Part shown: positions 17,512-60,233 of the stretch, piece after piece | Position numbering within the stretch: position 1 is the first letter of the stretch | Layout of the letters: every line of letters starts with the position of its first letter | DNA from: an uncultured Candidatus Saccharibacteria bacterium | GTDB taxonomy: Bacteria > Patescibacteriota > Dojkabacteria > J137 | Direction: 5' to 3' | NCBI GenBank assembly: GCA_964635995.1 | Contig: CAZWRA010000001.1 | Coordinates: forward strand, 226 to 64,225 | DNA: 64,000 bases | Notes under the pieces: model-generated | The model's database searches: none | The model's input: the letters and a program-made list of their open reading frames with translations, nothing else | Told to the model about the DNA's origin: nothing | Program-made: the position numbers and the translations under genes

Positions 17512-17563
17512 AATTGAAAAATTACTATATTAATTTGCCTTAATAAAATAGTGATGTCAACTA

Positions 17564-18298: not shown

Positions 18299-18302
18299 GA
18301 AT

Positions 18303-18887: not shown

Positions 18888-18960
18888 AAAAAATTATTAA
18901 TATCTAAATGTTGAAACTAATGTATTATGATAAGTATACTATATGAAATAGTAAATTATT

Positions 18961-19590: not shown

Positions 19591-20669
19591 CCGTTATGTT
19601 TAAACAATACAAGATCTCCATCTTGCATTATGTAAGTTTTACCTTCTAGTCTGACCTTACCTTTTTCTTTTGCTTTAACCCACCCGCCAAGTTCGACAAA
19701 ATCATGGCAATTAACAACATCCACAGCTATAAAGTTATTTTCAATATCAGAGTGGATTACCCCAGCTGCTTTAGGAGCAGTTGTTCCTTTCTTAATTGTC
19801 CAAGCTCTACTTTCTTTAGGACCTGATGTAAAGTAAGACATTAACCCAAGAAGGTCATAAGCTTCATTTGTAAGCATTTCAAGTCCAGTTGAACTAATTC
19901 CTAGCTCTTTCATAAATTCTGCTCTTTCTTCGTCACTCATTAATGATAGATCAGCTTCTGTTTTAATATCTAAGGCAATAACATTATGATCTCCAACAAT
20001 CTCTTTAATTTTCTTAATGTCGGCCTCAAAATTACCTTCTGATGAGTTTGCAACATATAAGACTGGTTTATCTGTTAGTAAGAAAAGTTCATTTCTTAAA
20101 GCTTTAATTTCATCGTTATTTTCATTCTCGAAAGTAATTGCAAGATTCCCATCACTTAAATGTTGTTCAAGATTAGTAAGAAAATCAACTAAAGGTTTCA
20201 TTTTTGGATTAGCTCTTGCTTTACCTTCAATAGCCCCTCTTCTACTTTGGATTGTATCTAAATCTTTTAGAATTAACTCAGTATTAATTAGTTCAATATC
20301 TCGTTTAGGATCTACATAATTTTCAACATGAGTAATATTCGCATTTTCAAAAGCTCTTACAACATGAATTATTGCAGAAACCTCTCGAATATTAGCTAGA
20401 AATTGATTTCCAAGTCCTTCTCCTTTAGAAGCACCTTTAACTAATCCAGCAATATCAACAAATTCAACAACAGCCGGTGTAATTTTTTCAGGCTTTTCAA
20501 CTTCTGCAATTTTATTTAGCCGATCATCAAAAACTGGAACAATCCCATGGTTTGGGTCGATTGTACAGAAAGGATAATTTTCAGCAGGAATATCATTTCT
20601 AGTTAAAGCATTAAATAGTGTTGATTTTCCTACATTCGGCATTCCAACAATTCCTAGTGATAGGTTCAT
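19587..20669 (-). CDS. ychF: Ribosome-binding ATPase YchF (Obg-family GTPase with TGS domain)
   Basis: G1 motif GIVGMPNVGKSTLFNALT, YPFCTIDPN, C-terminal TGS-like domain. 360 aa. Confidence 0.9.
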   Translation of the reverse strand: MNLSLGIVGMPNVGKSTLFNALTRNDIPAENYPFCTIDPNHGIVPVFDDRLNKIAEVEKPEKITPAVVEFVDIAGLVKGASKGEGLGNQFLANIREVSAIIHVVRAFENANITHVENYVDPKRDIELINTELILKDLDTIQSRRGAIEGKARANPKMKPLVDFLTNLEQHLSDGNLAITFENENNDEIKALRNELFLLTDKPVLYVANSSEGNFEADIKKIKEIVGDHNVIALDIKTEADLSLMSDEERAEFMKELGISSTGLEMLTNEAYDLLGLMSYFTSGPKESRAWTIKKGTTAPKAAGVIHSDIENNFIAVDVVNCHDFVELGGWVKAKEKGKVRLEGKTYIMQDGDLVLFKHNG

Positions 20670-20724
20670 AAAGGGTTTCTAAACTTGTAATTATATCGTA
20701 TAATCCCGCAATTATGTATCAGGT

Positions 20725-21201
20725 ATGTCAGAATCTGGTGAAATAATAGAACTGCAGGCTCTAAATCATCAAATAAATTTAAGAGCGATAAATGACTTTC
20801 TTAACGACGAAAGTAACTGGAGAGTCCTGAATTCACAAGAAGCAAGAAATTTAAGAGCAACAAGAGTTCAATTAGTTACCTTTTATAATGCATACGTAAT
20901 AAAAAGTAATAAGGCTAAATTTAAACTTGTATACTATCCTGAAGATGCAAAACGTAAAGATTAGAAGCGAATTATAAGAGTTTATGGAGCAATTGCTAAG
21001 ACAGCATTTGAAATGAACTATAGACTTTTTATTGAAGGTTATAAACCTACTGAGAAGATCCATTTGGAGGAAGATGAAGAATATGATGAAATACTTATGA
21101 GTGGGGATTTTGACACAGAACATCCTATGTATGAATTCTATGATGTTTTAGATGATGAAGAAGGCTTAGATGACGACTATGATGATATTAGAGAAGCGTA
21201 G
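20725..21201 (+). pseudogene. Small hypothetical gene apparently interrupted by an in-frame TAG (79-aa and 62-aa ORFs in the same frame, 16 stop-free codons between them); acidic C-terminal tail
   Basis: ORFs 20725..20964 and 21013..21201 share a frame. The intervening 48 nt encode KRIIRVYGAIAKTAFE with no stop. Alternatively these are two tiny independent genes. Confidence 0.3.
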
Positions 21202-23740
21202 GTAACCCTTCAAAATCAGGATTGTTTTTAATCTTCTCAATAGCATCTGCAAGCATTTCAATATAAAGAGCGTATCCAACTCCATTAATATGTCCACTCT
21301 GGCTTTCTCCTAAAATATTTCCAGCTCCTCTAATCTCTAAATCTTTCGAAGCAATTCTAAACCCAGCTCCAAGATCTTGATTATCTACAAGAGATTGTAA
21401 TCTTTCCATATAGAATTTTTGAGAAGCACTTTTCTCAGAATTAGCTTTAATTAAAGACATTAAGGCTTCCTGATTATCAGCATCAATACTGTCTAAAATC
21501 TTTTTACTTGGTTTAGGAGCCATTAAATAACAATATGCTTTAATTTCAGATCGACCGACACGACCTCTCATCTGATAAAGTTGAGACAGTCCAAATTTAT
21601 GAGCATCATGAATAATTATTGTATTTACATTCGGTAAATCTAATCCATTTTCTATAATACTTGTAGCTACTAATACATCAAACTTCTTATAATAAAAATC
21701 TGTAAATAGTTTATCTAGAGAATCAGGAGTCATTCTTCCATGAGCAAATTCAATTGAAACTTCTGGTAGTAAACTTTTTAATTTATTAGCAATTCCTGGA
21801 ATTGATTGAACTCTATTATGAACAAAATATACTTGTCCACCTCTTGAAACCTCCTTTTGAATTTCCTTTGCAGCTCTACTCCAATCTTCAAAAATAATTT
21901 CAGTTGCAACACCTTGTCTTCCTTTTGGAGGTGTAGAAATTATTGAAATATCTTGAATTGATGAAAGGGCTAGGCTTAGACTTCTTGGAATTGGTGTAGC
22001 ACTAACAGATAATACATGGACACCGTAATTAAGCTGTTTAATTTTCTCTTTTTGTTTTACTCCAAATTTTTGTTCTTCATCTACAACTAAAAGACCCAGA
22101 TCTTTAAACTTAATATCTGAACTTAAAAGTCTATGGGTTCCTATTACAATATCTACCTTCCTATCATTAATTTCATCTACAGTAGCTCTATTTTCTTTGA
22201 CAGAATTAAATCTTGAAAGCAATCTTATTTGAAATTTAGTATCTTTAAATCTTTCTTTAAAAACATCAAAGTGTTGAGAAGCAAGGATTGTTGTTGGGGC
22301 AAGTATTGCAACTTGCTTTTTACTCTCATTCATTTTAAAAGCAGCACGCATAATGACTTCAGTCTTTCCAAAACCAACGTCTCCAACAACAAGCCTATTC
22401 ATTGGAGTTTCTGATTCAAGATCTTTAATAACTTCATTAATTGATCTAATTTGATCTGGTGTTTCTTCGTATTGAAATTTATTAATAAACTTTTCATACT
22501 CTTTTGAATCTTTAGAATCAACTTTAAAAGCTTTTGAGACTTCTCTTTTTGCGTAATGTTTTATTAAAGTTTCTGCTGTTATTAAAGCGGTTTTTCTAGC
22601 CTTGTTCTTAACTTCTTTCCAATTCTTCTTTCCTAATTTTGTAAGTTTAGGAACATTTCCCTCATTCCCTAAATATTTTGCAATTTTATTAATCTGATCT
22701 ATCGGAACATAAAGCTCATCTTCTTCTGCAAATTTAATTAGTAAGTAGTCATTTGGAACATTATCTACAACCTGTTGTTCTAAACCTGAATAAATTCCAA
22801 TTCCATAATCCTCATGAACTATATAATCTCCTACAGAAACTTCACCTTCAAACTGCCTAAGAATATTTTGAAGTGTTTTTGAATTAATTCCAGACTCTGA
22901 GCGTTTTAGATCTATAACTCCGAAAAGCTCTCTATCAGTTAAAAGTACAATTTTATTTGAATTCGAAATAAATCCTGCAGGAAGTTTTTTTAATGATTCC
23001 TCAGAAACATGAAATTCATTTTTTTGAAACCTTAATGTAATGTCATCAACTTCTTCTTCAAAAACTTTTTTCCTAGAATTTGTTAATACTTTAAATCCAT
23101 TATTCTTATATTTACTTATCTCAGATTTAGCTACCTCAATATTAGAAAAGAAAAGAGGTCCGAAAACTAAATCTGTTTCAACTATTTCAATATTTCCGCT
23201 AAAGAATTCAGTTATTTTTCTATCTATTGTTTTATCTGAAAAAACAACCTTTTGAAGTTCACCTTTTCCTTCTTTAAAATCTAGTGATTCAAGTTCTCCT
23301 TTGTCTGAAGGTAGATAATCAGTAATTACAATATAATCGATCTCTTTTACCTTTTTATTAGTAAAATGATCATAAAGATTAATTTTCTCAATATCTTCTC
23401 CAAAGAATTCTAGTCTGACTGGAAAATCGTAACCTGGAAGCCAAACATCAATAATATCTCCTCTAACAGAAAACTCAAGCATTGAACTTACGCTATCTAC
23501 CTTTTTAAATTCAAGATTAACACCAACTTTAAATTCATCTATAACACCAATTGTATTAGTCTTACTATCTAGGTTTGTGATTCTATTTAATAAATCAGAG
23601 TATGTAATCTCATCTTTTTTAAGTAAAAAAGCATTTTGAACTGAATCAAAAAGCTCAGCAGAGAAACTTTTTGAATAAAAAGTTAATTTATCTGAGATAA
23701 ATAAAGGTTGTAGATGTCCAAGAGTTTTAACTATTTTCAA
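21188..23740 (-). CDS. mfd: Transcription-repair coupling factor (shortened N-terminus relative to E. coli Mfd)
   Basis: CarD/TRCF domain motif [17 protein letters not shown] followed by SF2 helicase motifs ([25 protein letters not shown]) and C-terminal TRCF domain. Confidence 0.85.
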
Positions 23741-23768
23741 TTTATTTTTTATGTTTAGAATTTGAATA

Positions 23769-26700
23769 TTAGGATTTGGAACTTAGCTTTTTAAGCCATT
23801 CCCCCGTATAACTCTCCTTCGTATTCATAATATCTTCTGGAGTTCCTAGAGCAACAATAGTCCCTCCTTTCTCTCCTCCTTCAGGTCCAAGATCAATAAT
23901 CCAGTCCGCAGTCTTAATTACATCTAGATTATGCTCAATAACAATTACTGAATTACCTTTTAGAACTAATCCATGAAGAACAATTAAAAGTTTTCTAACA
24001 TCTTCAAAGTGTAAACCTGTTGTAGGCTCATCCAAAATATATAAAGTCTTACCTGTTGATCTTTTAGCTAACTCACTAGCTAGTTTAACTCTTTGAGATT
24101 CTCCTCCAGACAGAGTTGTTCCTGCTTGGCCTAATCTTATATATCCAAGTCCTACATCCATAAGAGTTTGAAGTTTATTTCTAATTGCGCTTACATTATC
24201 AAAGAAGCTAACTCCTTCCTCAACAGTCATATCTAAGACTTCAGAAATATTTTTTCCTTTATAATCTATCTGTAATGTTTCTCTGTTATATCTTTTTCCT
24301 TTACATACATCGCAAGTTACATAAACATCTGGAAGAAATTGCATTGAAATTTGAATAACACCTGCTCCCTGACATTTCTCACATCTTCCTCTTTTAACAT
24401 TAAAACTAAACCGCCCTGGTTTGTATCCTCTTGCTTTTGCTTCTTTAGTTCCTGCATACATATCTCTAATTTGTGTAAATACACCAGTATATGTAGCTGG
24501 ATTTGATCTTGGAGTTTTTCCGATTGGAGATTGATCAATATCGATTACTTTATCAATATTTTCTAATCCAGTAACACTCTTGTATTCACCAGGAACAACT
24601 TTTGAGTTATATAAATGTTTAGATAGAACAGGATACACAACTTCATTGATTGTTGAGGATTTTCCACTTCCAGAAACTCCTGTTACACATACAAGTTTTC
24701 CAAGAGGAATCTCAAGGTCAAAACCTTTAAGGTTGTTATGTGTCAGTTTTGTGAATAAAAGAGTATTTTTATTTTCTTTTCTATCTTTAATTTCTCCAAG
24801 TGAATCAAGCTTCTTAATATCATTATAAATCTCTTCTTTATCAATTTTTTTCTTTCCAGAAAGATATTGACCAGTTAAAGAATTTTTATCATTAATCACA
24901 TCCTCAGCTTTCCCGAAAGAAACAACTTCTCCTCCATGTTCCCCAGCTCCAGGACCAATATCAATAACATGATCTGCTTTTTTTATTGTATCTTCATCGT
25001 GTTCAACAACTACTACAGTATTTCCGATATCTCTTAAATTTTCTAAAGTATGGATTAGTTTTTCATTATCTCTTTGATGTAATCCAATAGATGGTTCATC
25101 AAGAACATATAGTACTCCCGTTAAACCTGTTCCAATCTGAGAAGCTAGTCTAATTCTCTGTGCTTCACCTCCAGAAAGTGTTCTAGCTGTTCGACTTAAT
25201 GTTAAATATTCAAGACCTACTGAAATTAAGAAGTTTAATCTAACAGCAATTTCTTTGAATATTTGTCTTCCTATTTCTTGCTCTTGTTCACTTAGAGTAT
25301 CCTCAAGAGGCTTTATTTCAGGGAAGTTAAACAAAGTGTTTAAAATACTACCTTTTTGTTCAAATGAATATGAGTTATCAGCAATAGAAGTAATCCAATC
25401 ATATGCATCTTTAATGCTCATGTTTGTTACATCAACAATATTTGATCCAGCTATTGTTACAGAAAGTGACTCATTTCTTAATCTATATCCAAGACAAGTA
25501 GGACATTCTTTTTCAATCATGTATTGCTCAATCTCATTTCGAATATAATCTGAGTCTGTATCGTTATATCTTCTTAGTAAATTAGGAATTACTCCTTCAA
25601 ATTTATTATTCCATTCAAATTTTTCTCCAGAAGTGTTTGTATAAGTTCCTTTATATTTTTGTGTTCCTGACCCGTATAGAATAATGTCTCTATGCTCCTT
25701 TGAAAGCTCTACTATTGGTTTTCTCAGGTCAATTTTATGATGTTCAGCTACTGACTGTAATCTATTTAAAGTAAATGAATTCTCATTCTCAATTACTCTG
25801 TTCCAAGGATAAATTCCTCCCTCCATTACAGTTAGTCTAGGATTAAAGATTAAACTTTCATCAATCTCTTTAATTGAGCCCAGTCCATTACAAGTTTTAC
25901 ATGCTCCATGAGGAGAGTTAAAAGAAAAAGAATGTGGTTCTATTTCAGGAAATGATTCACCAGATCCTGGGTCAACAAGTTTTTCAGAAAAGAAAATATC
26001 TCCACCATCTTTAATTTTTATATCTTTAAACTTTTTAAGTTGTTCTTCATCTAAAATATTTACATATAATTCCCCATCTCCACTATTTATAGATAACTCT
26101 ACAGAGTCGGTTAGTCTTTTTATAAAAGTCTCGTCTTCTTTGGAATCTTTTTTAATTACAAGCCTGTCTATAACCAAATCGATGTTATGTTTTACATATC
26201 GATCAAGTTTAATCTCTTCCTCAAGATTAAATATATTCCCATCGACTCGAACTCTAACAAAACCTTGAGAAAGAAATCGATTAAATAACTCTTCGTATGT
26301 TCCTTTTCTATTTTTAATAATCGGAGAAATAATTTGTACTTTTACATCTTCACCAACAACACTATAAAAATCTAAAATTCTATCTACTATTTGTTGAACA
26401 GTTTGTTTTTCTAATCTTCTTCCAGTTATAGGACTTCTAGCATGTCCAGTTCTAGCAAATAACAATCTTAAGTAATCATAAATCTCAGTTACAGTTCCAA
26501 CAGTTGATCTTGGGTTATGTCCTGTTGATTTTTGATCAATTGAAATTGCTGGCTGTAATCCCTCAATTAAATCAACATCAGGTTTATCCATTAAACCTAG
26601 AAATTGACGTGCATATGAGGAAAGTGACTCAACATATCGTCTTTTTCCTTCTGCATAAATTGTATCGAAAGCTAAGGATGATTTCCCAGAGCCAGAAAGC

Positions 26701-26819
26701 CCTGTTATTACAGTTAATTTGTCCTTAGGGATATCAACATCAATATTTTTTAGATTATTTGTCCTAGCTCCTCGAACCTTTATAAAATCACTTTCAGCCA
26801 TTGTGGGTAGATAAACCAT
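23769..26819 (-). CDS. uvrA: Excinuclease ABC subunit A (probable true start at MAESDF, 6 codons inside the ORF)
   Basis: Canonical UvrA N-terminus ([58 protein letters not shown]). Two ABC modules with LSGGE signature motifs and zinc-finger cysteines. Confidence 0.95.
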
Positions 26820-28993: not shown

Positions 28994-29734
28994 GTGCATT
29001 TTTAATAATAACAATTTCTGTTTTAAATTTTTTTTGCAGGATTTATACTTTCCGATCTTGTAGATACTCGTTATAAGTCGACTTGGAATTCTATTCTATA
29101 TGAAAATACTTTTAAAAATTCAATTGTTGGACTTGTAGCTGCATATGCATCTTTGCCCCTTTCACATTACTATCTTCTAGAAAATCACGATATTGTTTAT
29201 ACGCTTGCATTCTTGATTTCTAATATTATGTTACTGCTTTTAATATTTTCATCTTATTTTGATATTCAATATTTTAAAGTATTAAATGGATTAACTAAGT
29301 ACTCAATATTTTTTCTTATTGTATTAAATATTGGAGCATTATTTATCTTTACTAATCAAAACGACATATTACTATTTAATAATTTAGATTTTAGACCTCT
29401 AGATAATTTAGTTGCAGGTTTCTTTTCTTGGTTTGTAACATTAAGTATTGTTAAGCTTTCAAATGATAAGGGCATGGGTGAAGGAGATATTAGAATAGCT
29501 ACAATTATTGGTTTGTCTTTTGGAATCTCGAAGGTAATTTTAGCAATGTACATAGCTATTTTCAGTGCAATTTTATTTGGATTATTTGCAATGGTACAGA
29601 AACGTAATAATACATACTTAAGATTAAAACTGCCTTTTGTTCCATTTCTAGTTTTTGGAGCAGTTGTATCTCTCTATCTTACAATAAATGCAAATGATAT
29701 TTTCATTTTCATAGAGAATCTTCTATTCTCTTAA
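28994..29734 (+). CDS. pilD: Prepilin (type IV pilin leader) peptidase, A24 family; start uncertain (frame open back to a GTG at about 28994; ORF track ATG at 29153)
   Basis: C-terminal A24 motif GMGEGDIRIATIIGLSFG within a multi-TM protein. Convergent with the pilus gene cluster. Confidence 0.65.
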
Positions 29735-30109
29735 TACACTATAAGGATCAGTAGAGATATTTATTTCATAATTTCTAACAAAATTTGTATCAAGATTTGT
29801 TGAAACTACCTTGATATTTCGAATTGATCCACCTGGATTAGTTACTGTAGCTGAACAAATATCAATACCATCAAATCTTACATCAAAAACTCCAGTATAG
29901 TTGTTATCTTGTTTAATTCTTAATATTCCCTCTTCTAAACACGTAATTGATTTTAAATAACTAACTGAGTAATCACTTAAGTTTCTACTAGTTTTATTAA
30001 TATCAATTGTATTTAATACAAGGGTTACAGCACCAACTGTAAGTATAGCTGTAATAACAATTACAGTTGTCAACGCTACACTTGCTTTTTTAGTTTTTTT
30101 ATAAGACAT
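29723..30109 (-). CDS. Pilin-like / pseudopilin protein with N-terminal TM helix
   Basis: Short basic N-terminus followed by hydrophobic helix (KKASVALTTVIVITAILTV…). Last gene of the pilus operon. Confidence 0.4.
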   Translation of the reverse strand: MSYKKTKKASVALTTVIVITAILTVGAVTLVLNTIDINKTSRNLSDYSVSYLKSITCLEEGILRIKQDNNYTGVFDVRFDGIDICSATVTNPGGSIRNIKVVSTNLDTNFVRNYEINISTDPYSVLRE

Positions 30110-30575
30110 AAATAGTACTTAATGATTCAGTTACTCCAGGGTTTTTGTCATAAGCTAAAGTTATACTAAGTTCTACACCTATAATTTCATTATCAGCATT
30201 TTCAATCTCTGTAAAAATAAACTCCTGAACAATTTGACTTTGTAAAGTTATAATGGACTGATCTGCAGTTTCAGTTCTAACTAGTCTATTATTTTGAACT
30301 GAAAATGAAATATCTCCAGAGGCTGTATTAAAAATTAATGTTCCATTATTCAAGTCGAAATCACTTGATTGATCAATTGTTGATGCTCTTTCTGCTACAT
30401 CTAGTAATTCTTCATTAATAATAATTAATGATTTCTGCATTTCACCCCTGTTTAGTGAAAGTCTCTGATATTCGTTAATTCTTATCCCGAATTGAACAAT
30501 GACGATAAAAGCAACTCCAAACAATGTTAAATATACTGTGTTTTCAAGAAGTGTTATTGCTTTCTTATATCTCAT
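30099..30575 (-). CDS. Pseudopilin / minor pilin-like protein
   Basis: Degenerate prepilin N-terminus (KKAITLLENTVYLTLFGVAFIVIV) with Glu at +5-like position. Confidence 0.5.
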   Translation of the reverse strand: MRYKKAITLLENTVYLTLFGVAFIVIVQFGIRINEYQRLSLNRGEMQKSLIIINEELLDVAERASTIDQSSDFDLNNGTLIFNTASGDISFSVQNNRLVRTETADQSIITLQSQIVQEFIFTEIENADNEIIGVELSITLAYDKNPGVTESLSTIYVL

Positions 30576-30636
30576 CTTGTATAGACTAAGCTAAAATCTT
30601 GAAATATCGGACTAGTAACTCCATCTGATTGAAAAA

Positions 30637-32478
30637 CTAACCTGTACTGAAAATATCTTTATTCTGTACTTCATCTGGTAAAAATTCCCTCTCGCCATTT
30701 GTAAAATAAGTACTTCCAGTATTGTCAGGTCCAACCCAATTCGCTCCTGACATATCCGAGTTATCTGGTGCTCTAACTTGAAGTTCTAAACTTGTATTAC
30801 CAGGAATAGAGCTTGTCCATTGAATTAAGTGATAGCTTGGATCATTATATGTAGTATCAAAAATACTAGAAATAAACTCACCTTCTTCTTCAAAAGAACT
30901 TCCTCCAGATCCTAATCCTCCTTTAATAACTCTAAATTCTTCATTCGAAGCATTTCCAATAACGTAAGAAAAAACATCCTCTAGCGGAGTTCTTACAGAA
31001 GTTACTCCATTAAAACCTGATGGAACATCTAATCCTCCACAATATTGAATATTTGTAATATTAGTAATGTCTACAACCTGATATTCTTGCCCGCCATATC
31101 CTACAATAACAACCCTGTCGTCTGTAACAGTATTTCCTGTAACACTCATTCCATTAGTATCGTAAGAATCGAGAATTGGAACAGATCCTGTTTTATTTGT
31201 AGAATCCAAAATAAAAAATTCATCCCAAAAACTTGAGTAGGTTGTTCCAATAAAAACTCGATTTCCATCCTCGCTAACATAAAGATCTGATGATTGAGAA
31301 AAATTCAAATCTTTATTCTTTACTACTCTTATATCGCTTGGATTTGTTATGTTTACAATTATAAGTTCATACCAGTCATCATACATAGAAAGAAAAGCAT
31401 AATTACCTCTAATTTCAATTTCAGTTATATATCCACTAGAAAATAACCCAACTGTTAAAGAATCTAGTTGCGGCCTTGAGCCTATCTTTGAAGATAGATC
31501 AAATGATCTTAATACTCTTCCTTGAGCAACATAACCTACATTTCCATTAACATAAACACTTGTTGGATCAGTAGTTCCACTTGCATCGAAATATCCAATC
31601 TCGCTGTAGGGAGCAGTATCAGTATCTAAGATAACAACCTCTCTATTGTCTGTAGTGGTAGCTAAATAAGTGTAATTTGCATCTCCATATATTCCTGTTG
31701 TTGAGTAGCCTGAAAATTCAGCTTCGATAGTTACTCCTGCAGGATCTGTTGAGTGATCAATTAATAAGTTCTGAAGAGAATAACTTGTTGAACCTAGAAA
31801 AGCTTTTCCTGGAATTGAACTAACAATTGTAGGTATACCATTCCCAGGAATATCATAAATTGTCTGAGTAAGCTCCGGTTGACACCAATTAGAAAAAGCT
31901 GGGCTAGCTAGCTGAACCTCACCTCCAAAGTCATTAGAAACAATAACAGTATCTAGTGTTCCTGAGTTAAACTCATTTTCTGTTGTATCTACCCATTCAC
32001 TAGTATGCCAACTGTTTAAAAAGAAAGTTGAAAATATTGAAGATTCTTCTCCAGCCACATTATTCCATTTAGCTGTAATTATTACTTGTTTTGATCTAGG
32101 ATCCAATGTTCCTACAGTACTTACAAACTGACCATTAATATCTCGTCTTGCAGGACTTACTGTAAAACTTATAGAAAATCCTCCTGTAATAAATTCACCG
32201 TTAATAATTTCAGCTTCCCCATTTACTATTTGTATATGTCTTGGATTAGAATCAGAAATTGCAAGGAGCTCTCCCCACTTTTCATCTTTTAATATTTCAA
32301 TTCCTTGTATTGTTTCTTGAATTAAAATTTGAGCCTCACTTCTAGTTCTTTGATTAACATCAGATCTTAATGCATCTACACTAAACAAGGAAACGGTTGT
32401 AAAAACAAAAGAAAATAAGGCAACTGCTAAAACAAGTTCTATTAATGAAAATGCTTTTTTGGTTTCCTTATCTTTCAT
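30637..32478 (-). CDS. Large (613 aa) type IV pilin-like protein, candidate tip adhesin / PilY1-functional analogue
   Basis: Prepilin-type N-terminus KAFSLIELVLAVALFS followed by a long Ser/Thr/Gly/Asn-rich beta-rich domain. Confidence 0.6.
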   Translation of the reverse strand: MKDKETKKAFSLIELVLAVALFSFVFTTVSLFSVDALRSDVNQRTRSEAQILIQETIQGIEILKDEKWGELLAISDSNPRHIQIVNGEAEIINGEFITGGFSISFTVSPARRDINGQFVSTVGTLDPRSKQVIITAKWNNVAGEESSIFSTFFLNSWHTSEWVDTTENEFNSGTLDTVIVSNDFGGEVQLASPAFSNWCQPELTQTIYDIPGNGIPTIVSSIPGKAFLGSTSYSLQNLLIDHSTDPAGVTIEAEFSGYSTTGIYGDANYTYLATTTDNREVVILDTDTAPYSEIGYFDASGTTDPTSVYVNGNVGYVAQGRVLRSFDLSSKIGSRPQLDSLTVGLFSSGYITEIEIRGNYAFLSMYDDWYELIIVNITNPSDIRVVKNKDLNFSQSSDLYVSEDGNRVFIGTTYSSFWDEFFILDSTNKTGSVPILDSYDTNGMSVTGNTVTDDRVVIVGYGGQEYQVVDITNITNIQYCGGLDVPSGFNGVTSVRTPLEDVFSYVIGNASNEEFRVIKGGLGSGGSSFEEEGEFISSIFDTTYNDPSYHLIQWTSSIPGNTSLELQVRAPDNSDMSGANWVGPDNTGSTYFTNGEREFLPDEVQNKDIFSTG

Positions 32479-32927
32479 TATAAATTTATAACTCCTGAAG
32501 AGTTAATAATTAAATTTATTGAACTTGATCCGCTCGTTAGAACAATACTACCAGTTCCTACTGGTCTATAGTCTCCTTGATTAAATCTAAGTTCATTTCC
32601 TGTCGCATTAAATACAGCACTTTCTATACTTATTCCAAAAGGTAATTCTTTAACTTGAGTCTCAGTTGCACTAGCTAAATTATTTCCTGTAAAAAGTGTA
32701 TAACTTTCCTCAGCAAAAGATATTCCAAAAGATGAATCGTCAAGACCTGAATAAGCATTTTGTTGTTGAACAAATATATCTGAACTTATTCTTCTGGCTG
32801 TATTCGTTAGATCATTTCTTCTAAATTCGTTAGCTGCTACAGGAACAAACAAAAACCCAGCTAAAGAGACTATAGCCAAAACTAGAATAAGCTCAATTAT
32901 AGTAAACGCATTCTTCTTATCCGACAT
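32478..32927 (-). CDS. Minor type IV pilin
   Basis: Class III signal: KKNAFTIIELILVLAIVSLAGF (Phe+1, Glu+5). Confidence 0.7.
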   Translation of the reverse strand: MSDKKNAFTIIELILVLAIVSLAGFLFVPVAANEFRRNDLTNTARRISSDIFVQQQNAYSGLDDSSFGISFAEESYTLFTGNNLASATETQVKELPFGISIESAVFNATGNELRFNQGDYRPVGTGSIVLTSGSSSINLIINSSGVINL

Positions 32928-34060
32928 TAATACTTCCTGTTAACTGATAGATAGGTCCTACAATAATAATTGCTAGGAAACCAATCATTGCTCCAATAAA
33001 TACTAATAAAATTGGTTCTAATAATGTCGATAGATTGTTTGAAAGCTCTTCAACTTCTTCAGCATGATATTCATATAAATAACCTAAATTTTCTTCAAGA
33101 GTACCAGTACCTTCCCCCAACCTCAATCATTTTTATAAAGGAAGGAGGAAAATACTTTGGGTAGAAAAGTAGTGAGGATGCAACTGACTTTCCACTTTTT
33201 ACCTCATTTGCAACATCTTTTAAGGCTTTTTTATAGTAAGTGTTACTTACAGTGCCTGTTGCAATATCAAGAGCTGATACTAATGGAATCCCTGTTTCTA
33301 AAAGAATACTTAGTGTTCTTGCAAATGAAGCTAAGATGTTATGTTGTGTAAGTTTTTTAATTACAGGAAATTTTAATGAGAACCAGTCTTTAAACTTTTT
33401 TCCAGATTTTGATCTTAAGAACATAATAAAAAGAAAAATTGCTAATGCTAATCCTCCAGCTAGAAATAAAGCATTTGTACGTATAAATGCAGAAGCAGCA
33501 AGTATCCCTTTTGTTAAAGGTGGAATATTTTCAAAAGATGTAAAAAGCTCTTCAAGTTTTGGCAAAATTAAAAATATTACTCCAAGCATTTCAACAAAAG
33601 TCAGCATAAATACAATCGCAGGATAGATTAGAGCTCCTTGAACTTTTTTTTCCAAGAGTGTGTGCTTTCTTTAAATAATCAGAAAGAAAAAAAGGTTTTT
33701 CCCAAAGTGCCTTCCTGCTCACCAACAGAAATTACAGACATGATAATGTCTGAAAAAACTTTTGGATACTTTCTCATTGAATCAGACAAAGTCATTCCAT
33801 CACTAATCATGCCAGCAATTTCAATGTATTTTTTGAAAGTCTTTCGTCAGCAGTTTGTTCAGAAAGAGTAAGAACTGCATCATTCAAAGCAAGTCCAGAT
33901 CGTAACATAAGATATAGATTTCTTATTGAAACCAAAACTGCAAGTTTAGGTATACCACTAAAATAAATCTGTCCTCCTTTTTTCTTTTTTTGGGTAGTTT
34001 TCTCTCTTTAGCCATTATTCTTTTAATGCAGTTACTCTCATTAATTCAGATAATGAAATC
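32917..34060 (-). pseudogene. pilC: Type IV pilus / T2SS platform protein PilC/GspF, disrupted by at least two frameshifts (pieces 32917..33126, 33095..33655 and further fragments 33660..34060 in other frames)
   Basis: GspF-domain motifs in three different frames. They are …LETGIPLVSALDIATGT… …FPPSFIKMIEVGG, then LEPILLVFIGAMIGFLAIIIVGPIYQL, and upstream fragments …IRNLYLMLRSGLALNDAV… / ISDGMTLSDSMRKYPKVFSDIIMSVISVGEQEG. ORFs 33095..33655 and 32917..33126 overlap by 32 nt. Confidence 0.7.
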
Positions 34061-34065
34061 ACTCC

Positions 34066-35297
34066 TTATCTTAATTTCTCAACACCATCTTCAACAATTA
34101 ATTTAAGACCTTGTCTTCTTGCTTCGTTATAAATTTGATCAGTGTCAGCTCCAGCCATTATAATTTTTCTTATGCTTTCAGTAATTTCTAATACTTCATA
34201 AAGACCAATTCGGCCTTTGTATCCATTTTCTACAGATCCTTCAGGTACATTTGGTGCAAATAATTTTTCCCCAACTTTTAAATATGCAGCTAAGTCGGGT
34301 CTATATACTTTTAGTTCTTCATATTCTTCATTTGTTAACCTCACTTCCTTCTTTTATTGTTCGTCAATTTTTCTAGCTAAACGTTGCGCTATAACAACAT
34401 TTACTGTTGTTGCGAGTAAGTATGGTTCTACACTCATATCGATAAGTCTAGGAATTGTAGTTACAGCATCATTAGTGTGAATAGTAGATAGAACTAAGTG
34501 CCCTGTCATTGCGGCATTAGTTGCAATTTTAGCTGCCTCGGAATCTCGAATCTCTCCAATCATAATTACATTAGGATCCTGTGTCTTAGAATTGATCTCA
34601 GTCCGTTACTGAATGTTAAACCAGCCTTTTTGTTAACTTGAACGTGATTTATTCCATTAATTTCATATTCTACTAGATCTTCAACTGTAGTTATATTTAT
34701 ATCTCTAGAATTTATTGTTGTTAAAATTGCGTAAAGAGTTGTTGTTTTACCAGATCCTGTTGGACCTGAAGCAAAAATCGATCCATAAGGTTTTTTAAAT
34801 GCTTTTTTAACAATTTCATAATCTTTATCTCTTAGTCCTAAATCTTCAAGTTCAAATGATCTACCTTTTTGTGTTAAAAGTCGAATTATAACTTTCTCGC
34901 ATTTAGCTGTTGGAAGAATAGAAATTCTTGTATCTAACTTATCCTCAAAATCAAAAGCAATTCTTCCGTCTTGTGGCGCGAAATGTTCATCAGTTCGAAG
35001 CTTTGCATTAACTTTAATTTTAAATACTAATGTTTCTTCGTATCTTTTTTCTATTGTATAAAGGTCTTTTAAAATTCCATCTATTCTATATCGAACAACC
35101 ATATTATCTTCATGAGGTTCAAGATGGATATCAGAAGCACCTTTATTTAAAGCCGTTAAAACTATATCATTAAGCATTCCTGTTATACCTCTTTCCTTAC
35201 CATCCTGTTTCCCCTCTTCAATTAATGGTGCATCATCGGATTGTATTATCTCTTCTTCTTTTATAGATGTGTTTAATGACTTCTTGGCCATAATCAT
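34066..35297 (-). pseudogene. pilB: Type IV pilus assembly ATPase PilB/GspE split in three pieces (34566..35297, 34354..34563, 34066..34344) by one frameshift and one in-frame TAA
   Basis: Piece 1 ends …[18 protein letters not shown] but the -1 frame reads [14 protein letters not shown], joining Walker B. Walker A is GPTGSGKTTTLYA and the His box is [13 protein letters not shown]. Pieces 2 and 3 are in the same frame, separated by TAA (…ARKIDEQ*KKEVRLTNEEY…). C-terminal piece has GYKGRIGLYEVL. Confidence 0.8.
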
Positions 35298-35312: not shown

Positions 35313-35345
35313 AAAAAAGACCTCAACAATTGAGGTCTTTTAAAT
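35313..35345 (-). terminator. Rho-independent terminator hairpin downstream of the major pilin gene (perfect 8-bp stem GACCTCAA/TTGAGGTC, loop CAAT, flanked by A-run and T-run; potentially bidirectional)
   Basis: Plus-strand sequence aaaaaaagacctcaacaattgaggtcttttaaa between the pilin stop (35362) and the pilB start (35297). Confidence 0.55.
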
Positions 35346-35361: not shown

Positions 35362-35823
35362 TTATCGAGAAACTGAGATTGTAGTACCTTCTGCATCCGG
35401 TGCTGCGATTGTTACTCTTCCACTTGCTTCTTCGCAAATTGTATAACCTGTATCAGCTCCAGTTCCTGTTGAAGGATCCTGAGGAATTCCTACAATGTAT
35501 GTAGGTGTTAATGCTGTAGCAAGATCAGCATCTCCAGTTCCAATAACATCAGTTAATGGACAAGCTTGGAAAGAACCTCCAACAACTCCAGCAGCTGTTG
35601 CTAGTGAGTCTAAGTCGTTTCCTTGTTCTGAAGTATATTGTGTTACAGCATTTAGAATCTGTAATACATCTGAACTTCTTTGTGCATTTCTTGTGTCTCT
35701 AAAGTTTCTTGCAGGGTTAATTGCAATAAATGTAATTGTTGCAAGAATTGCAATTAAAGCAACAACTACAAGGATTTCAATAAGTGTGAATCCTTCTTTA
35801 TTTTTTTCTTCATTTTTATTCAT
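35362..35823 (-). CDS. pilA: Type IV major pilin (PilA-like)
   Basis: Canonical prepilin leader and N-methylation motif KEGFTLIEILVVVALIAILATI (G-1, F+1, E+5). 153 aa. Confidence 0.85.
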   Translation of the reverse strand: MNKNEEKNKEGFTLIEILVVVALIAILATITFIAINPARNFRDTRNAQRSSDVLQILNAVTQYTSEQGNDLDSLATAAGVVGGSFQACPLTDVIGTGDADLATALTPTYIVGIPQDPSTGTGADTGYTICEEASGRVTIAAPDAEGTTISVSR

Positions 35824-35927
35824 GAAAAACTATAGATAAAAAGTAAAATTTTGATCTCTTTATACATTCAGTATATGAAGGTAAAATTATGAAGTCAACA
35901 AATATTTTTAAGAATTAAGATTTTATA

Positions 35928-37175: not shown

Positions 37176-37949
37176 ATGATACTGTTTCTTGATCTGCAAT
37201 TTCTGTCATATAATCTAAATATGAATGAACTTAATTCACATAATTTCGATGCTAAAACGACACTTTTTAGTGGGCAAACATTTTTGTGGAGTAGACAAGG
37301 TAATGATTTAATAGGTTCTTTTAAGAATAAGATCATTATTTTGAGTGAGAGAAGAAATAAATGGTATTGGCAAACCTATCCCAATAAGGATGATTTTGAC
37401 TTTGTTAAAAATTATTTAAACTTAGATTTCGATGGTCAGAAGTTTATTACAAGTACAAATGATGAACATATAAGAAGTTCTTTTTCTAAATACCCAGGTT
37501 TAAGAGTTTTAAAACAACCTTTTGAAGAAACTATTCTCTCATTTATTCTTGCTTCGAATAAGAATATAAAAGCTATAAGAAAAACCTTTAATTTTCTTAA
37601 AGGAAAACAGAATAGATATATAAAAGTTGATAATAAGAAATACTTTTTCTTCCCTTCAATAGAATTTATTAATGATGTAGATATTTCTGTTTTACAAGAA
37701 TCGGGAGCAGGATATAGAGTTAAATATTTAAAAGATCTAGCTAATAAATTCGAAACAATAAAAACAAAAGGAGATTTTTCAGAAATAGCTAATTCACTAA
37801 AAAAAGTTAATGGAATTGGAGATAAAATTGCAGATTGTATAATGACTTTTTCATTAGGATTTAATAATATAACTCCTATAAATAGATGGTCTGAGCGTAT
37901 AATTACAGAACTTTATAATGATTTTTACTTTGAAAAAGTACTCAGATAA
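37176..37949 (+). CDS. ogg: 8-oxoguanine DNA glycosylase, OGG1 family (HhH-GPD)
   Basis: Colinear similarity to OGG1 blocks: TLFSGQTFLWSR (cf. LPSGQSFRW), ETILSFILASNKNIKAIRKTFNFL (cf. [24 protein letters not shown]), SGAGYRVKYL (cf. LGLGYRARYV), VNGIGDKIADCIMTF (cf. LPGVGTKVADCICLM, catalytic Lys conserved). Confidence 0.75.
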   Translation: MILFLDLQFLSYNLNMNELNSHNFDAKTTLFSGQTFLWSRQGNDLIGSFKNKIIILSERRNKWYWQTYPNKDDFDFVKNYLNLDFDGQKFITSTNDEHIRSSFSKYPGLRVLKQPFEETILSFILASNKNIKAIRKTFNFLKGKQNRYIKVDNKKYFFFPSIEFINDVDISVLQESGAGYRVKYLKDLANKFETIKTKGDFSEIANSLKKVNGIGDKIADCIMTFSLGFNNITPINRWSERIITELYNDFYFEKVLR

Positions 37950-39584: not shown

Positions 39585-40793
39585 TTAATACTTTTTTCCA
39601 ACTAAATTTTTAGGCATATACTCCTGTTCTACTTTCTTTCCATTTTTCTCCTCTAGCCAAGGATATCTCGTATGTCCTTTTCCATACCCATGCTCTTTCA
39701 TTACTTTATTTGGAGCATTTCTAAGATGAAGTGGAATTGGATCAAGAGGTTTATTATGAATATCGCTGATTGCATTACTTATGCCTTCAGTTACAGCAAT
39801 TGATTTAGGACAAGAAGCTAAGTAAGTAGCGCATTGAGCTAAGATTAATTTTGCTTCAGGCATACCGATCATATTAACAGCTTGCATTGTTGAGGTAGCT
39901 ACAACTAAAGCAGTAGGTTTTGCATTTCCGATGTCTTCAGAAGCAAATATAACCATTCTTCTTGCAATAAAAACTGGATCTTCTCCTGCTTCAATCATTC
40001 AAGAAAGATAATGAAGAGTAGCATCTGCTTTTCCTCCTCTCATTGATTTAATAAAGGCAGAAATAGTGTCGTAATGTGCATCTCCCTTTTTATCGTATAC
40101 ACCAAATTTTTGTTGAAGAATATCTGAAACAATCTCTCGAGTTATTTTTTTATTGATTTTAGAAGCGAATTCTAAAGCATTAATAATTTTTCTTGCGTCT
40201 CCGTCTGCAAATGCAATTAAAAACTCTATCGCATCCTCATCCCATTTAATCTTTTTTATCTCTTTATTTGCTCGATTAAAAACTTCTAAGCATTCTTCAT
40301 CGCTTAACTTTTCAAATCTAAATACTCGACTTCTTGAAATTAAAGGAGCATTAATTTCAAAACCGGGATTTTCGGTTGTTGCTCCAATTAAAATTATAGT
40401 TCCGTTCTCAACATAGGGAAGAAATGCATCCTGTTGAGCTTTATTAAATCTATGAATTTCATCTACAAATAATACTGTTTCTCTAGCTTCTTCAATTTTT
40501 CTATGTTCAGCTAACTTTACAATCTCTCTAACTTCTTTTATTCCTCCAGTTACAGCTGAAAATGAAACAAAGTGTGCTTCTGTATAGTTTGGAATTAATC
40601 TGGCTAAAGTAATTTTTCCACATCCTGGAGGTCCCCAAAAAATCATTGAAGAGATATTACCTGATTCAATAATTTTACGAAGAGGTTTGTTCTTTCCTAG
40701 AATATGTTTTTGACCAATGAATTCATCAAGATTCGTCGGCCTTAGACTTTCCGTTATCATCCTTCTTTCTACCTGATGTAAAAAGCGTAACAA
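39585..40793 (-). pseudogene. rarA: Replication-associated recombination protein A (RarA/MgsA AAA+ ATPase) interrupted by an in-frame TGA at 39999..40001; probable true start MITESLRP at about 40760
   Basis: N-terminal ORF has Walker A GPPGCGKITLARLI, Walker B VLFVDEIHRFNK, sensor motifs. The downstream ORF is contiguous and in-frame and encodes the MgsA_C domain (MIEAGEDPVFIARRM…PKSIAV…HLRNAPNKVMKEHGYGKGH). TGA aligns with a conserved Arg (…HYLS*MIEAGEDP vs …YLARMIEAGEDP). Confidence 0.8.
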
Positions 40794-41804: not shown

Positions 41805-42110
41805 CTAATCGTGAAGAATTACTTCAAAAGCACCTTTACCTCCATTATAAAGGTTTGCAGATTTAAATTCAGAGACTAATTTGTTCTTTGGGAGAAGTTT
41901 TCTTACTAAAGGCCTTACTAACTTACCGTGACCAGTTATTACTAATAAGAATTTGTTTCCAAGTAAGTAATTATCTTCGATAAACTCAAAAAGAATTTTT
42001 TCAACTTCAAAAGGATCAAGTTTATCGTAAAGATGAAAATCCAGTTCGTTTTGTTGAAAGAAAAATGAGGTTAGATTATTCGATGAGTGATCTTTGTATT
42101 TATTAGCCAT
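41805..42110 (-). CDS. Smr-domain protein
   Basis: LDFHLY…LLVITGHGKLVRPLVRKLL…GGKGAFEVIL matches the Smr domain pattern (DLHG…IIHGKG…GG.G). Confidence 0.65.
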   Translation of the reverse strand: MANKYKDHSSNNLTSFFFQQNELDFHLYDKLDPFEVEKILFEFIEDNYLLGNKFLLVITGHGKLVRPLVRKLLPKNKLVSEFKSANLYNGGKGAFEVILHD

Positions 42111-60136: not shown

Positions 60137-60233
60137 AATTTTACAACAATATCAGTATATCAGCGACTGTCAATAATGGCCAGCAGCAATATCAGAATAT
60201 GCTCTAAATTAATTATTCAGTTGGGGAATATTC

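What the first reader, a model, noticed from the sequence alone, without database searches (positions are those of the whole stretch)
30637..32478. 613-aa protein with a type IV prepilin N-terminus: giant pilin-like candidate adhesin
Typical minor pilins are 120-200 aa. This ORF starts with a class III signal-like sequence (KKAFSLIELVLAVALFSFVF) but continues for about 580 aa of Ser/Thr/Asn/Gly/Tyr-rich, beta-strand-like sequence. Stretches such as '…YSTTGIYGDANYTYLATTTDNREVVILDTD…' suggest propeller or lectin-like repeats. It lies between two small pilins in the operon. This is probably a pilus-tip adhesin built on a pilin scaffold, analogous in role to PilY1/PilC but unrelated in sequence.
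Basis: inference. Interest (0 to 1): 0.5.

Follow-up and report, generated by a model that had tools for sequence, protein, structure and literature searches.

The report
Propeller-bearing minor pilin, frameshifted copy
This is a minor subunit of a type IV pilus that carries a seven-bladed propeller domain, probably displayed at the pilus tip of a tiny symbiotic (CPR) bacterium to bind something; the type of protein is already catalogued, and this copy and its assembly genes appear broken.

Summary
The 613-aa ORF and its prepilin-type N-terminus are real. A confident AlphaFold model (pLDDT 91.8) shows four parts:
- a long N-terminal pilin helix
- a small beta-sheet head
- a seven-bladed LVIVD beta-propeller
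- a C-terminal beta-sandwich

It belongs to a large, length-conserved family (about 640 aa; 1,210 clusters at E<=1e-30) found in Microgenomatia-type CPR bacteria (Dojkabacteria, Levy-, Woese-, Gottesmanbacteria). The gene always sits in the same operon: major pilin, PilB, PilC, then four minor pilins, with the giant second.

I read it as a modular minor pilin that shows a binding module at the pilus tip. This kind is known. Raynaud et al. 2021 already list prepilin+LVIVD architectures, and Saccharibacteria PilX2 is a propeller-bearing minor pilin needed for host binding.

- The ORF is cut short by a frameshift. The conserved last 28 residues lie in another frame, and the intact gene would encode 635 aa.
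- pilB (one frameshift, two in-frame TAA) and pilC (four frameshifts) are also broken here, but intact in relatives. The locus is either decaying or locally mis-assembled.

The propeller is the most conserved part of the protein. That argues against a fast-evolving, host-specific adhesin.

The parts
30637..32478 (-). The ORF as found: 613 aa, a modular minor pilin truncated at its C-terminus
32452..32478 (-). Class III (prepilin) leader MKDKETKKA; predicted cleavage after Ala9, before FSLIE (Glu at +5)
   Evidence: Read directly from the sequence. Pfam N_methyl E 0.0023, below the cutoff. 12 of 18 family members match N_methyl. The family profile hits solved pilins at E 9.5e-5. Glu14 is invariant in 79 sequences.
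32281..32451 (-). Long N-terminal alpha-helix of the pilin module (residues 10-66; model helix 12-66)
   Evidence: AlphaFold models
31984..32262 (-). Beta-sheet head of the pilin module (residues 73-165)
   Evidence: The fold search found no significant match.
31879..31983 (-). Conserved connecting segment TTxxEFxxGT...GGEVxL with three short strands (residues 166-200); ends at the invariant W198-C199
   Evidence: Whether it packs with the C-terminal sandwich was not tested.
30916..31878 (-). Seven-bladed beta-propeller made of LVIVD-type repeats (residues 201-521; 28 strands)
30889..30915 (-). Gly-rich linker GGLGSGG, the only low-confidence stretch (pLDDT 64)
30658..30888 (-). In-frame part of the C-terminal beta-sandwich (residues 531-607)
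   Evidence: No Pfam or PDB sequence match.
30658..30660 (-). AAA run where the reading frame is lost (one base missing relative to homologues)
30572..30657 (-). Out-of-frame tail encoding the conserved last two strands RYFQYRLVFQSDGVTSPIFQDFSLVYTR; its TGA overlaps the ATG of the next gene
32478..32927 (-). First minor pilin, 149 aa, ComGD/GspH-like; its stop overlaps the giant gene's start (TAATG)
   Evidence: NCBIfam ComGD E 1.4e-9 and GspH E 1.9e-6, both below cutoff
30099..30575 (-). Third minor pilin-like gene, 158 aa, KKA|ITLLE with Glu at +5
29723..30109 (-). Fourth minor pilin-like gene, 128 aa, weak PilX_N match; lacks Glu5 here and in three relatives
35362..35823 (-). Major pilin, 153 aa, KEG|FTLIE; followed by a 12-bp-stem terminator hairpin at 35315..35341
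34015..35297 (-). pilB assembly ATPase, disrupted: CA insertion near 34581, in-frame TAA at 34354..34356 and 34066..34068
32917..34015 (-). pilC platform gene, disrupted: four frameshifts at homopolymer runs (A6 ~33829-33834, A5/T7 ~33687-33700, A8 33644-33651, G5 33114-33118)
29153..29734 (+). Prepilin peptidase (Peptidase_A24), convergent with the operon; homology to relatives begins at about 29087

Best explanation
**What it is.**
- The gene encodes a modular minor type IV pilin of a monoderm-type CPR (Microgenomatia/Dojkabacteria) pilus.
- An ordinary pilin module (cleavable class III leader, long hydrophobic helix with Glu5, small beta-sheet head) anchors the protein in the filament core.
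- A module of about 470 residues is grafted onto it: a seven-bladed LVIVD beta-propeller plus a beta-sandwich.

**Where it sits (inferred).**
- It is the second of four translationally coupled minor pilin genes.
- By gene order and Glu5 pattern these correspond to the H-I-J-K set (GspH-K / FimU-PilVWX / ComGD-GG) that primes assembly and ends up as the tip complex.
- Such a bulky module would clash with neighbouring subunits in the filament shaft. The protein is therefore inferred to sit at the tip and present the propeller and sandwich outward as a ligand-binding (adhesive) head.
- Because the propeller is the most conserved part of the family, its ligand or partner is likely conserved across the class, not a rapidly changing host receptor.

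**State of this copy.**
- The last two strands of the sandwich are lost to a frameshift.
- The assembly ATPase and platform genes are also broken.
- The locus is therefore either a recently inactivated pilus operon or a locally error-ridden stretch of assembly.

**Shown versus inferred.**
- Shown: sequence motifs, predicted fold, family, synteny, lesions.
- Inferred: processing, tip location, binding function, ligand.
For: **Pilin N-terminus.**
- Leader and Glu5 motif; Glu14 invariant in 79 sequences.
- 12 of 18 members match N_methyl; the family profile hits solved pilins at E 9.5e-5.

**Fold.**
- The models have pLDDT 91.8 and 89.9, with helix 12-66, a beta head, 28 propeller strands and a C-terminal sandwich.
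- LVIVD matches 16 of 18 members.

**Operon.**
- The same operon (pilA, pilB, pilC, four minor pilins, convergent A24 peptidase) is found in L001, L003 and L005.
- pilB-pilC-giant linkage holds in nearly all of the 57 species-representative loci that have enough flank.
- The first minor pilin is ComGD/GspH-like.
- The fourth lacks Glu5 in four genomes while the first three have it.
- Start and stop codons of the minor pilin genes overlap.

**Precedent.**
- Modular pilins are modelled as compatible only with the tip (PMC8179133).
- TM7x PilX2, a propeller-bearing minor pilin, is needed for host binding but not for filament extrusion (PMC11623550).

**Lesions.**
-.
- Relatives are intact: giant 49 of 51 uncut loci, pilB 419-597 codons, pilC mostly 337-436 codons.
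Against: **No direct evidence.**
- Nothing here shows processing, incorporation into the filament, tip location or binding.

**Weak points in the pilin assignment.**
- The pilin module has no significant fold match in the PDB (best pilin E 0.13).
- N_methyl and LVIVD are both just below Pfam cutoffs for this individual protein.
- The assignment to the I position rests on gene order and a weak N-terminal ComGE hit (E 9e-4).

**Points against a simple adhesin reading.**
- High conservation of the propeller fits a structural or priming role at least as well as adhesion.

**This copy.**
- It may be non-functional.
Confidence: 0.6

Rival explanations
1. PilY1-like role without PilY1 homology. The conserved propeller is mainly a structural or regulatory cap fused to a core minor pilin. 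It would prime assembly, stabilise the tip complex, or oppose or gate retraction through the cell envelope. Any host specificity would lie elsewhere, for example in the less conserved C-terminal sandwich or in other proteins.
For: - The propeller is the most conserved domain (44% against 28-35% for the others), with near-invariant motifs VGxGGxEYQV, FDLSSKxGSR and YDTNGMSV.
- The family keeps a constant length and a fixed operon position across a whole class.
- In PilY1 the propeller is the part shared by all family members while the N-terminal modules differ (PMC8179133).
Against: - There is no sequence or specific fold similarity to PilY1.
- In TM7x the propeller pilin PilX2 is dispensable for filament extrusion and affects binding.
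- No retraction ATPase was found in the window (one search found only the pilB region).
Confidence: 0.2
2. DNA-capture module of a competence-type pilus. The operon has the minimal Com-like gene set (ATPase, platform, major pilin, four minor pilins, peptidase), and the giant pilin's module would bind extracellular DNA at the tip. ComZ of Thermus is a comparable large modular minor pilin.
For: - The gene set and order parallel comGA-GG plus comC.
- The best NCBIfam hits for the first two minor pilins are ComGD and ComGE, both below cutoff.
- In Com pili the tip complex of four minor pilins captures DNA (PMC12153270).
- CPR bacteria are reported to have widespread pilus and competence systems (PMC6744442).
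Against: - The ATPase and platform score far better against PilB/GspE and GspF than against ComGA/ComGB.
- The extra-pilin part is very poor in Lys (1.9%) and Arg (3.1%), which does not suit a DNA-binding surface.
- In Com pili the DNA site is the ComGD-ComGF interface, not an added module.
Confidence: 0.07
3. Tip-delivered enzyme. The propeller would be catalytic, for example a glycan- or cell-wall-modifying activity, carried on the pilus to act on the host envelope.
For: - Many seven-bladed propellers are enzymes.
- There is a weak SBP56 hit (E 0.044; 1 of 18 members).
- Strongly conserved polar motifs could form an active site.
- Raynaud et al. note that modular pilins include modules with predicted enzymatic activity.
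Against: - No enzyme family matches above noise.
- The top structural neighbours are scaffold-type WD40 propellers.
- LVIVD repeats have no known activity.
Confidence: 0.05
4. The breaks are assembly or sequencing errors. The gene and operon would then be intact and functional in the organism, and the true product would be 635 aa.
For: - Five of six frameshifts lie in mononucleotide runs: A3, A6, A5/T7, A8 and G5. These are typical of long-read or pyrosequencing errors.
- Amino-acid identity to the intact relative L003 stays high across the broken genes (75% for PilB, 67-83% for PilC). If the decay is real, it is very recent.
Against: - Three of the lesions in pilB are not length errors in a mononucleotide run: two are base substitutions to TAA and one is a CA dinucleotide insertion.
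- Four of the 16 long homopolymer runs in the operon are shifted. The many long ORFs elsewhere (up to 1,197 aa) are open, although the window holds 171 other such runs.
- If none of those 171 is shifted, the chance of all four falling in the operon is about 4e-5 by my arithmetic. I did not check every gene.
- Other genes in the window also look damaged (rarA with an in-frame TGA, a DUF3095 remnant), which fits a genome that carries real pseudogenes.
Confidence: 0.35

Closest known systems
Modular type IV pilins (Raynaud et al. 2021, PNAS; S. sanguinis PilB with a vWA module and PilC with a lectin module), including the catalogued architecture IPR012902 (prepilin N-terminus) + IPR013211 (LVIVD)
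   Same: - A small pilin module with a functional module grafted on, expected at the tip.
- Prepilin+LVIVD architectures are already listed in their Dataset S1, and an 860-aa Falkowbacteria example is mentioned in the text.
- IPR013211 is the LVIVD repeat.
   Different: - Those LVIVD entries were only counted (called a 'motif of unknown function') and never studied.
- Here the module is a complete seven-bladed propeller plus a beta-sandwich.
- The family is a fixed, class-wide operon component.
- The gene is the second of the four core minor pilins, not an extra pilin.
PilX2 of Nanosynbacter lyticus TM7x (Saccharibacteria) T4P-2
   Same: A CPR minor pilin with a C-terminal seven-bladed beta-propeller. 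It is a candidate tip adhesin; its deletion halves host binding without abolishing filaments.
   Different: - The PilX2 propeller has RCC1 repeats; this one has LVIVD repeats, and no RCC1 hit appears in Pfam at E<=1.
- PilX2 lacks a predicted PilD signal, whereas this protein has a canonical leader with Glu5.
- This protein also has an added beta-sandwich.
- The lineage is different (Microgenomatia).
PilY1/PilC tip-associated adhesins of diderm T4aP
   Same: A large propeller-containing protein encoded with the core minor pilins and presented at the tip. The propeller is the part shared across the family.
   Different: - PilY1 is not a pilin; it has a Sec signal and docks on the minor pilins.
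- Here the propeller is covalently fused to a pilin.
Core minor pilin sets GspH-I-J-K / FimU-PilV-PilW-PilX / ComGD-GE-GF-GG
   Same: Four consecutive, translationally coupled minor pilin genes. The first is GspH/ComGD-like, the last lacks Glu5 as GspK/PilX/ComGG do, and the giant occupies the I (GspI/PilV/ComGE) position.
   Different: - I-type minor pilins are normally the smallest, at about 100-130 aa.
- In known systems the enlarged member is usually K (GspK).
- The subfamily assignment is not supported by any score above cutoff.
ComZ (Thermus) and CofB/TcpB (T4b) large minor pilins
   Same: Pilin module plus large beta-rich module(s) at the tip; CofB has a beta-repeat domain plus a beta-sandwich.
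   Different: The folds differ (beta-solenoid; beta-repeat). In ComZ the extra domain is inserted into the pilin beta-sheet, and CofB/TcpB form trimers. No sequence similarity was found.

Membership tests
Type IV pilin (class III signal peptide proteins) | Short basic leader, Gly/Ala at -1, hydrophobic +1, Glu at +5, and about 20 hydrophobic residues | tested here: met
   MKDKETKKA|FSLIELVLAVALFSFVFTTV. Glu14 is invariant and Leu12 nearly so in 79 sequences. -1 is Gly or Ala across the family. N_methyl E 0.0023, 17.9 bits against a 21.2 cutoff, for this protein; 12 of 18 members match. The profile hits solved pilins at E 9.5e-5.
Type IV pilin | Lollipop fold: long N-terminal helix packed on an antiparallel beta-sheet | tested here: inconclusive
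   The AlphaFold topology fits (helix 12-66, then 5-6 strands; pLDDT 89.9). Foldseek against the PDB gave no match below E 0.02; the best pilin was TT_C0855 at E 0.13.
Type IV pilin | Encoded with a prepilin peptidase, an assembly ATPase and a platform protein | tested here: met
   The operon contains pilB, pilC and a convergent Peptidase_A24 gene, in the window and in relatives. In the window pilB and pilC are disrupted.
Type IV pilin | Cleaved, N-methylated and polymerised into the filament | not testable with these tools
   Needs proteomics of pili or cryo-EM from an organism with an intact operon.
LVIVD repeat proteins (PF08309 / IPR013211) | Tandem LVIVD repeats of four strands each that form a beta-propeller | tested here: met
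Modular pilin (sensu Raynaud et al. 2021) | N-terminal pilin module plus at least one additional, non-pilus-specific domain | tested here: met
   the architecture is listed in their Dataset S1.
PilY1/PilC (IPR008707 propeller) | Sequence or specific fold match to the PilY1 C-terminal propeller; not itself a pilin | tested here: not met
TM7x PilX2-type pilins | RCC1-repeat propeller; non-canonical signal | tested here: not met
   No RCC1 family among the Pfam hits at E<=1. The leader is canonical. I did not compare the two proteins directly.
I-type core minor pilin (GspI / PilV / ComGE) | Family-level sequence match; second gene of the H-I-J-K set; has Glu5 | tested here: inconclusive
   ComGE E 9e-4, 19.3 bits against a 49 cutoff, covering the N-terminal 52 residues only. 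Gene order and the Glu5 pattern fit.

The most novel reading that the evidence does not exclude
The LVIVD propeller is not a variable adhesin. It would be an obligatory, class-wide tip module fused to the I-type core minor pilin, doing for the wall-crossing pili of Microgenomatia what the separate PilY1 protein does in diderms. In that role it would prime or cap the filament and recognise one conserved ligand, such as a cell-wall glycan motif, DNA or a partner pilus protein. That would make it the key contact point between these episymbionts and their hosts, and a single conserved target for testing how uncultured Microgenomatia attach.
Probability: 0.2. Interest if true: 0.55.

Novelty: new member of a known kind. 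Interest (0 to 1): 0.3.

Why it matters
CPR bacteria are thought to depend on contact with other cells, and type IV pili are their best candidate contact organs. This family has at least 1,210 clusters at 50% identity and is fixed in the pilus operon across Dojkabacteria and other Microgenomatia. It is an obvious but uncharacterised candidate for the part of the pilus that touches the partner.

Its unusually conserved propeller offers a concrete target for binding assays and for structure work. For this particular window the practical message is more modest. The annotated 613-aa protein is a truncated product, and the pilus operon around it is either decaying or mis-assembled, so an intact orthologue should be used for any follow-up.

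Tried and rejected
1. **Fusion or read-correction artefact: rejected.** The homologues are mostly 630-660 aa, and the gene is a single ORF in 49 of 51 uncut loci.
2. **Stop-codon reassignment as the cause of the in-frame stops: rejected.** TAA ends 28 of 37 long ORFs, including neighbouring pilin genes. The in-frame stops align with different residues (Lys, Glu) in L003.
3. **Programmed frameshift at the giant gene's C-terminus: rejected.** There is no slippery heptamer at AAT AAA GAT, and all relatives are unshifted.
4. **PilY1 homology: rejected**.
5. **Pam pilus of CPR (bioRxiv 2026): not relevant.** It is a different, chaperone-usher-like system.
6. **Fold search of the pilin module alone:** no significant hit.
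7. **Test of whether strands 166-200 and the C-terminal sandwich form one domain that hosts the propeller as an insertion: uninformative.**
   - A chimeric query gave no Pfam or PDB hit.
   - It found nothing in the protein database.
   - The profile version found only C-terminal fragments of the same family.
8. **The search for related loci with the broad alignments failed**; a narrower alignment worked.
9. **The look-up of encoding contigs did not find the window's own protein**, so the source record was not identified.
Full report
**Observation**

The ORF at 30637..32478 on the minus strand is real: 613 aa with an ATG start.
- Its N-terminus, MKDKETKKA|FSLIELVLAVALFSFVFTTV, has the features of a class III (prepilin) signal. 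These are a short basic leader, a small residue at -1 (Ala here; Gly or Ala in relatives), Phe at +1, Glu at +5 and a hydrophobic stretch.
- S+T+N+G+Y make up 40.8% of residues 40-613, against 29.3% in the other long ORFs of the window.
- The window has about 31% G+C.

**The ORF is a truncated version of the gene**

- All homologues end with a conserved ...RYFQYK..(S/T)D...TP.L.....NY.. segment.
- In the window this segment (RYFQYRLVFQSDGVTSPIFQDFSLVYTR) is encoded directly downstream, but in another frame.
- Inserting one A into the AAA run at 30658..30660 restores a 635-aa product. Its TGA overlaps the ATG of the next gene.
- The annotated 613-aa product therefore lacks the last 28 conserved residues and carries six unrelated ones instead.

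**Family**

- The first database search found 87 homologues, nearly all 630-660 aa and with 27-67% identity. Where named, they come from Candidatus Dojkabacteria (WS6), Woesebacteria and Levybacteria. Their annotations read hypothetical, 'prepilin-type N-terminal cleavage/methylation domain' or 'pseudopilin PulG'.
- A profile search of 1.84 billion cluster representatives found 1,210 proteins at E<=1e-30. Most of the best 150 are full-length, single-stretch matches of 620-720 aa. A minority of 800-2,000 aa carry several propeller stretches.
- In species-representative genomes 57 loci were recovered. All of them are Microgenomatia-type CPR wherever the record title is informative.

**Structure**

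An AlphaFold2 model of the frame-corrected protein, built with a 79-sequence alignment, is confident (mean pLDDT 91.8). It contains, in order:
- helix 12-66
- a beta-sheet head (about 80-164)
- three short strands (174-190)
- 28 strands arranged as seven four-stranded blades (about 201-521)
- a Gly-rich linker, the only weak stretch (pLDDT 64)
- a beta-sandwich (532-634)

Fold and family evidence for the propeller:
- Pfam gives LVIVD (PF08309) at E 0.0018 for this protein, just under the cutoff. It matches 16 of 18 family members, best E 8e-12.

Evidence for the pilin module:
- Modelled alone, it has pLDDT 89.9 and lollipop topology, but no significant fold match in the PDB.
- At sequence-profile level it matches solved pilins only through the N-terminal motif (E 9.5e-5).
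- The pilin assignment therefore rests on the signal and helix, on topology and on context, not on a fold hit.

The C-terminal sandwich matches no Pfam family and no PDB sequence.

**Context**

On the minus strand the window carries, in order:

| Gene | Coordinates | Notes |
|---|---|---|
| major pilin | 35362..35823 | G\|FTLIE |
| pilB | 34015..35297 | disrupted |
| pilC | 32917..34015 | disrupted |
| 149-aa pilin | 32478..32927 | ComGD/GspH-like, E 1.4e-9 |
| giant gene | 30637..32478 | this finding |
| 158-aa pilin-like gene | 30099..30575 | has Glu5 |
| 128-aa gene | 29723..30109 | weak PilX_N match |

A convergent Peptidase_A24 gene (29153..29734, + strand) follows.

- A promoter-like site precedes the major pilin gene, and a 12-bp-stem terminator hairpin follows it.
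- The four minor pilin genes overlap start-to-stop (TAATG, ATGA, and an 11-nt overlap). This suggests coupled translation of a complex.
- The first three have Glu5. The fourth lacks it in the window and in three relatives, as GspK/PilX/ComGG do (established knowledge of these families).
- The same operon is present in a complete 1.04-Mb Dojkabacteria genome (L001), in the closest relative (L003, 67% identity) and in L005.
- pilB-pilC-giant linkage holds in nearly every locus with enough flank. The major pilin gene lies upstream in Dojkabacteria and about 2 kb downstream in the other lineages.

**Lesions**

Relative to L003:
- pilB has a CA insertion near 34581 and two in-frame TAA codons, at 34354 and 34066. 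These align with Lys and Glu in L003.
- pilC has four frameshifts at homopolymer runs.
- The giant gene has one frameshift.

In relatives all three genes are intact: the giant in 49 of 51 uncut loci, pilB at 419-597 codons and pilC mostly at 337-436 codons.

Evidence that the lesions are real and localised:
- Long ORFs elsewhere in the window are open, including uvrA (1,016 aa), dnaE (1,197 aa) and mfd. The window holds 187 long homopolymer runs, of which only 16 lie in the operon. Uniform sequencing error is therefore unlikely.
- Two nonsense substitutions and a dinucleotide insertion are not classic homopolymer errors.
- The window also has a rarA gene split by an in-frame TGA and a DUF3095 remnant.

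Evidence the other way:
- Amino-acid identity to L003 remains about 75% across the broken genes.

I put real, recent decay at about 65% and local assembly error at about 35%. Only the reads can decide.

**Mechanism**

The best-supported reading is a modular minor pilin.
- The pilin module inserts into the filament core as one of the four core minor pilins. By gene order this is the I position, although that is not supported by any family score above cutoff.
- The propeller plus sandwich cannot fit in the shaft, so they sit at the tip as a binding head.
- This steric argument, and the concept itself, come from work on S. sanguinis PilB (PMC8179133).
- A CPR precedent exists. TM7x PilX2, a minor pilin with a seven-bladed RCC1 propeller, is needed for efficient host binding but not for filament extrusion (PMC11623550).

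One result qualifies the adhesin idea.
- The propeller is the most conserved part of the protein (44% mean pairwise identity), against 34% for the pilin head, 28% for the second half of the helix and 35% for the sandwich.
- It has near-invariant motifs at 326-335, 439-448 and 459-468, and two invariant cysteines, C199 and C480.
- That pattern fits a conserved ligand or a structural, PilY1-like role better than a rapidly evolving host-specific receptor binder.
- A DNA-capture role is made less likely by the very low Lys and Arg content of the module. It is also weakened because the ATPase and platform score much better against PilB/GspE and GspF than against ComGA/ComGB.

**Comparison and novelty**

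- Modular pilins are well described. Dataset S1 of Raynaud et al. already lists IPR012902+IPR013211 architectures, and the text mentions an 860-aa Falkowbacteria pilin with 12 such motifs. IPR013211 is the LVIVD repeat.
- No paper in the searched library discusses LVIVD pilins beyond that.
- This is therefore a new, uncharacterised member of a known kind.
- Its points of interest are its fixed place among the core minor pilins, its class-wide conservation and its unusually conserved propeller.

**Verdict**

This particular copy is probably defective. Interest is modest, at 0.3.

Noticed in passing
window 34015..35297 (-): The pilB assembly ATPase gene is broken by a CA insertion near 34581 and by two in-frame TAA codons (34354..34356 and 34066..34068). 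The same gene is intact in all related loci examined.
   Followed up: yes
window 32917..34015 (-): The pilC platform gene is broken by four frameshifts, all at homopolymer runs (A6, A5/T7, A8, G5). It is intact in relatives.
   Followed up: yes
window 39585..40793 (-): The rarA/mgsA recombination-factor gene is split by an in-frame TGA at 39999..40001. The N-terminal piece has AAA + AAA_assoc_2 and the C-terminal piece has MgsA_C. An ATG follows the stop directly.
   Followed up: partly
window 59756..60151 (-): This ORF matches only positions 1-105 of the 378-position DUF3095 profile, and all frames downstream are closed. It is probably a gene remnant.
   Followed up: partly
window 35315..35341 and 35870..35898 (-): A strong terminator-like hairpin (12-bp stem) lies directly after the major pilin gene, and a promoter-like TTGACT-17-TATACT lies upstream of it. 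This layout fits high pilin expression with partial read-through into pilB.
   Followed up: no
window 29723..30109 (-); L001, L003, L005: The fourth minor pilin lacks Glu5 (G/A|S-V/A-ALTT) in all four genomes, while the first three minor pilins keep it. This mirrors GspK/PilX/ComGG.
   Followed up: partly
window 5394..8435 (+) and 3202..4713 (+): Two large ORFs (1,013 aa and 503 aa) have no Pfam match at E<=1e-5. They were not examined further.
   Followed up: no
window 13657..26819, 37176..37949, 41805..42110, 47428..48705, 51076..51567, 55917..59510: The window is unusually dense in DNA-repair and replication genes: a UvrD+PDDEXK helicase-nuclease, mfd, uvrA, an OGG-like glycosylase, an Smr protein, a Y-family polymerase, an S24 (LexA/UmuD-like) peptidase and dnaE.
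   Followed up: no
window 58655..59431 (-): A 258-aa ORF lies antisense to the 3' end of dnaE and has no Pfam hit. That is long for a spurious ORF in a 31% G+C genome.
   Followed up: partly
P0203, P0091, P0216; L060, L061: Some family members are much larger (about 900-2,000 aa) with up to 11 matched stretches. This implies tandem propellers on one pilin module.
   Followed up: no
L036, L045: In two related loci the giant gene's open frame is only about 390 codons. These may be further independently disrupted copies, or an artefact of the ORF-extension method I used.
   Followed up: no
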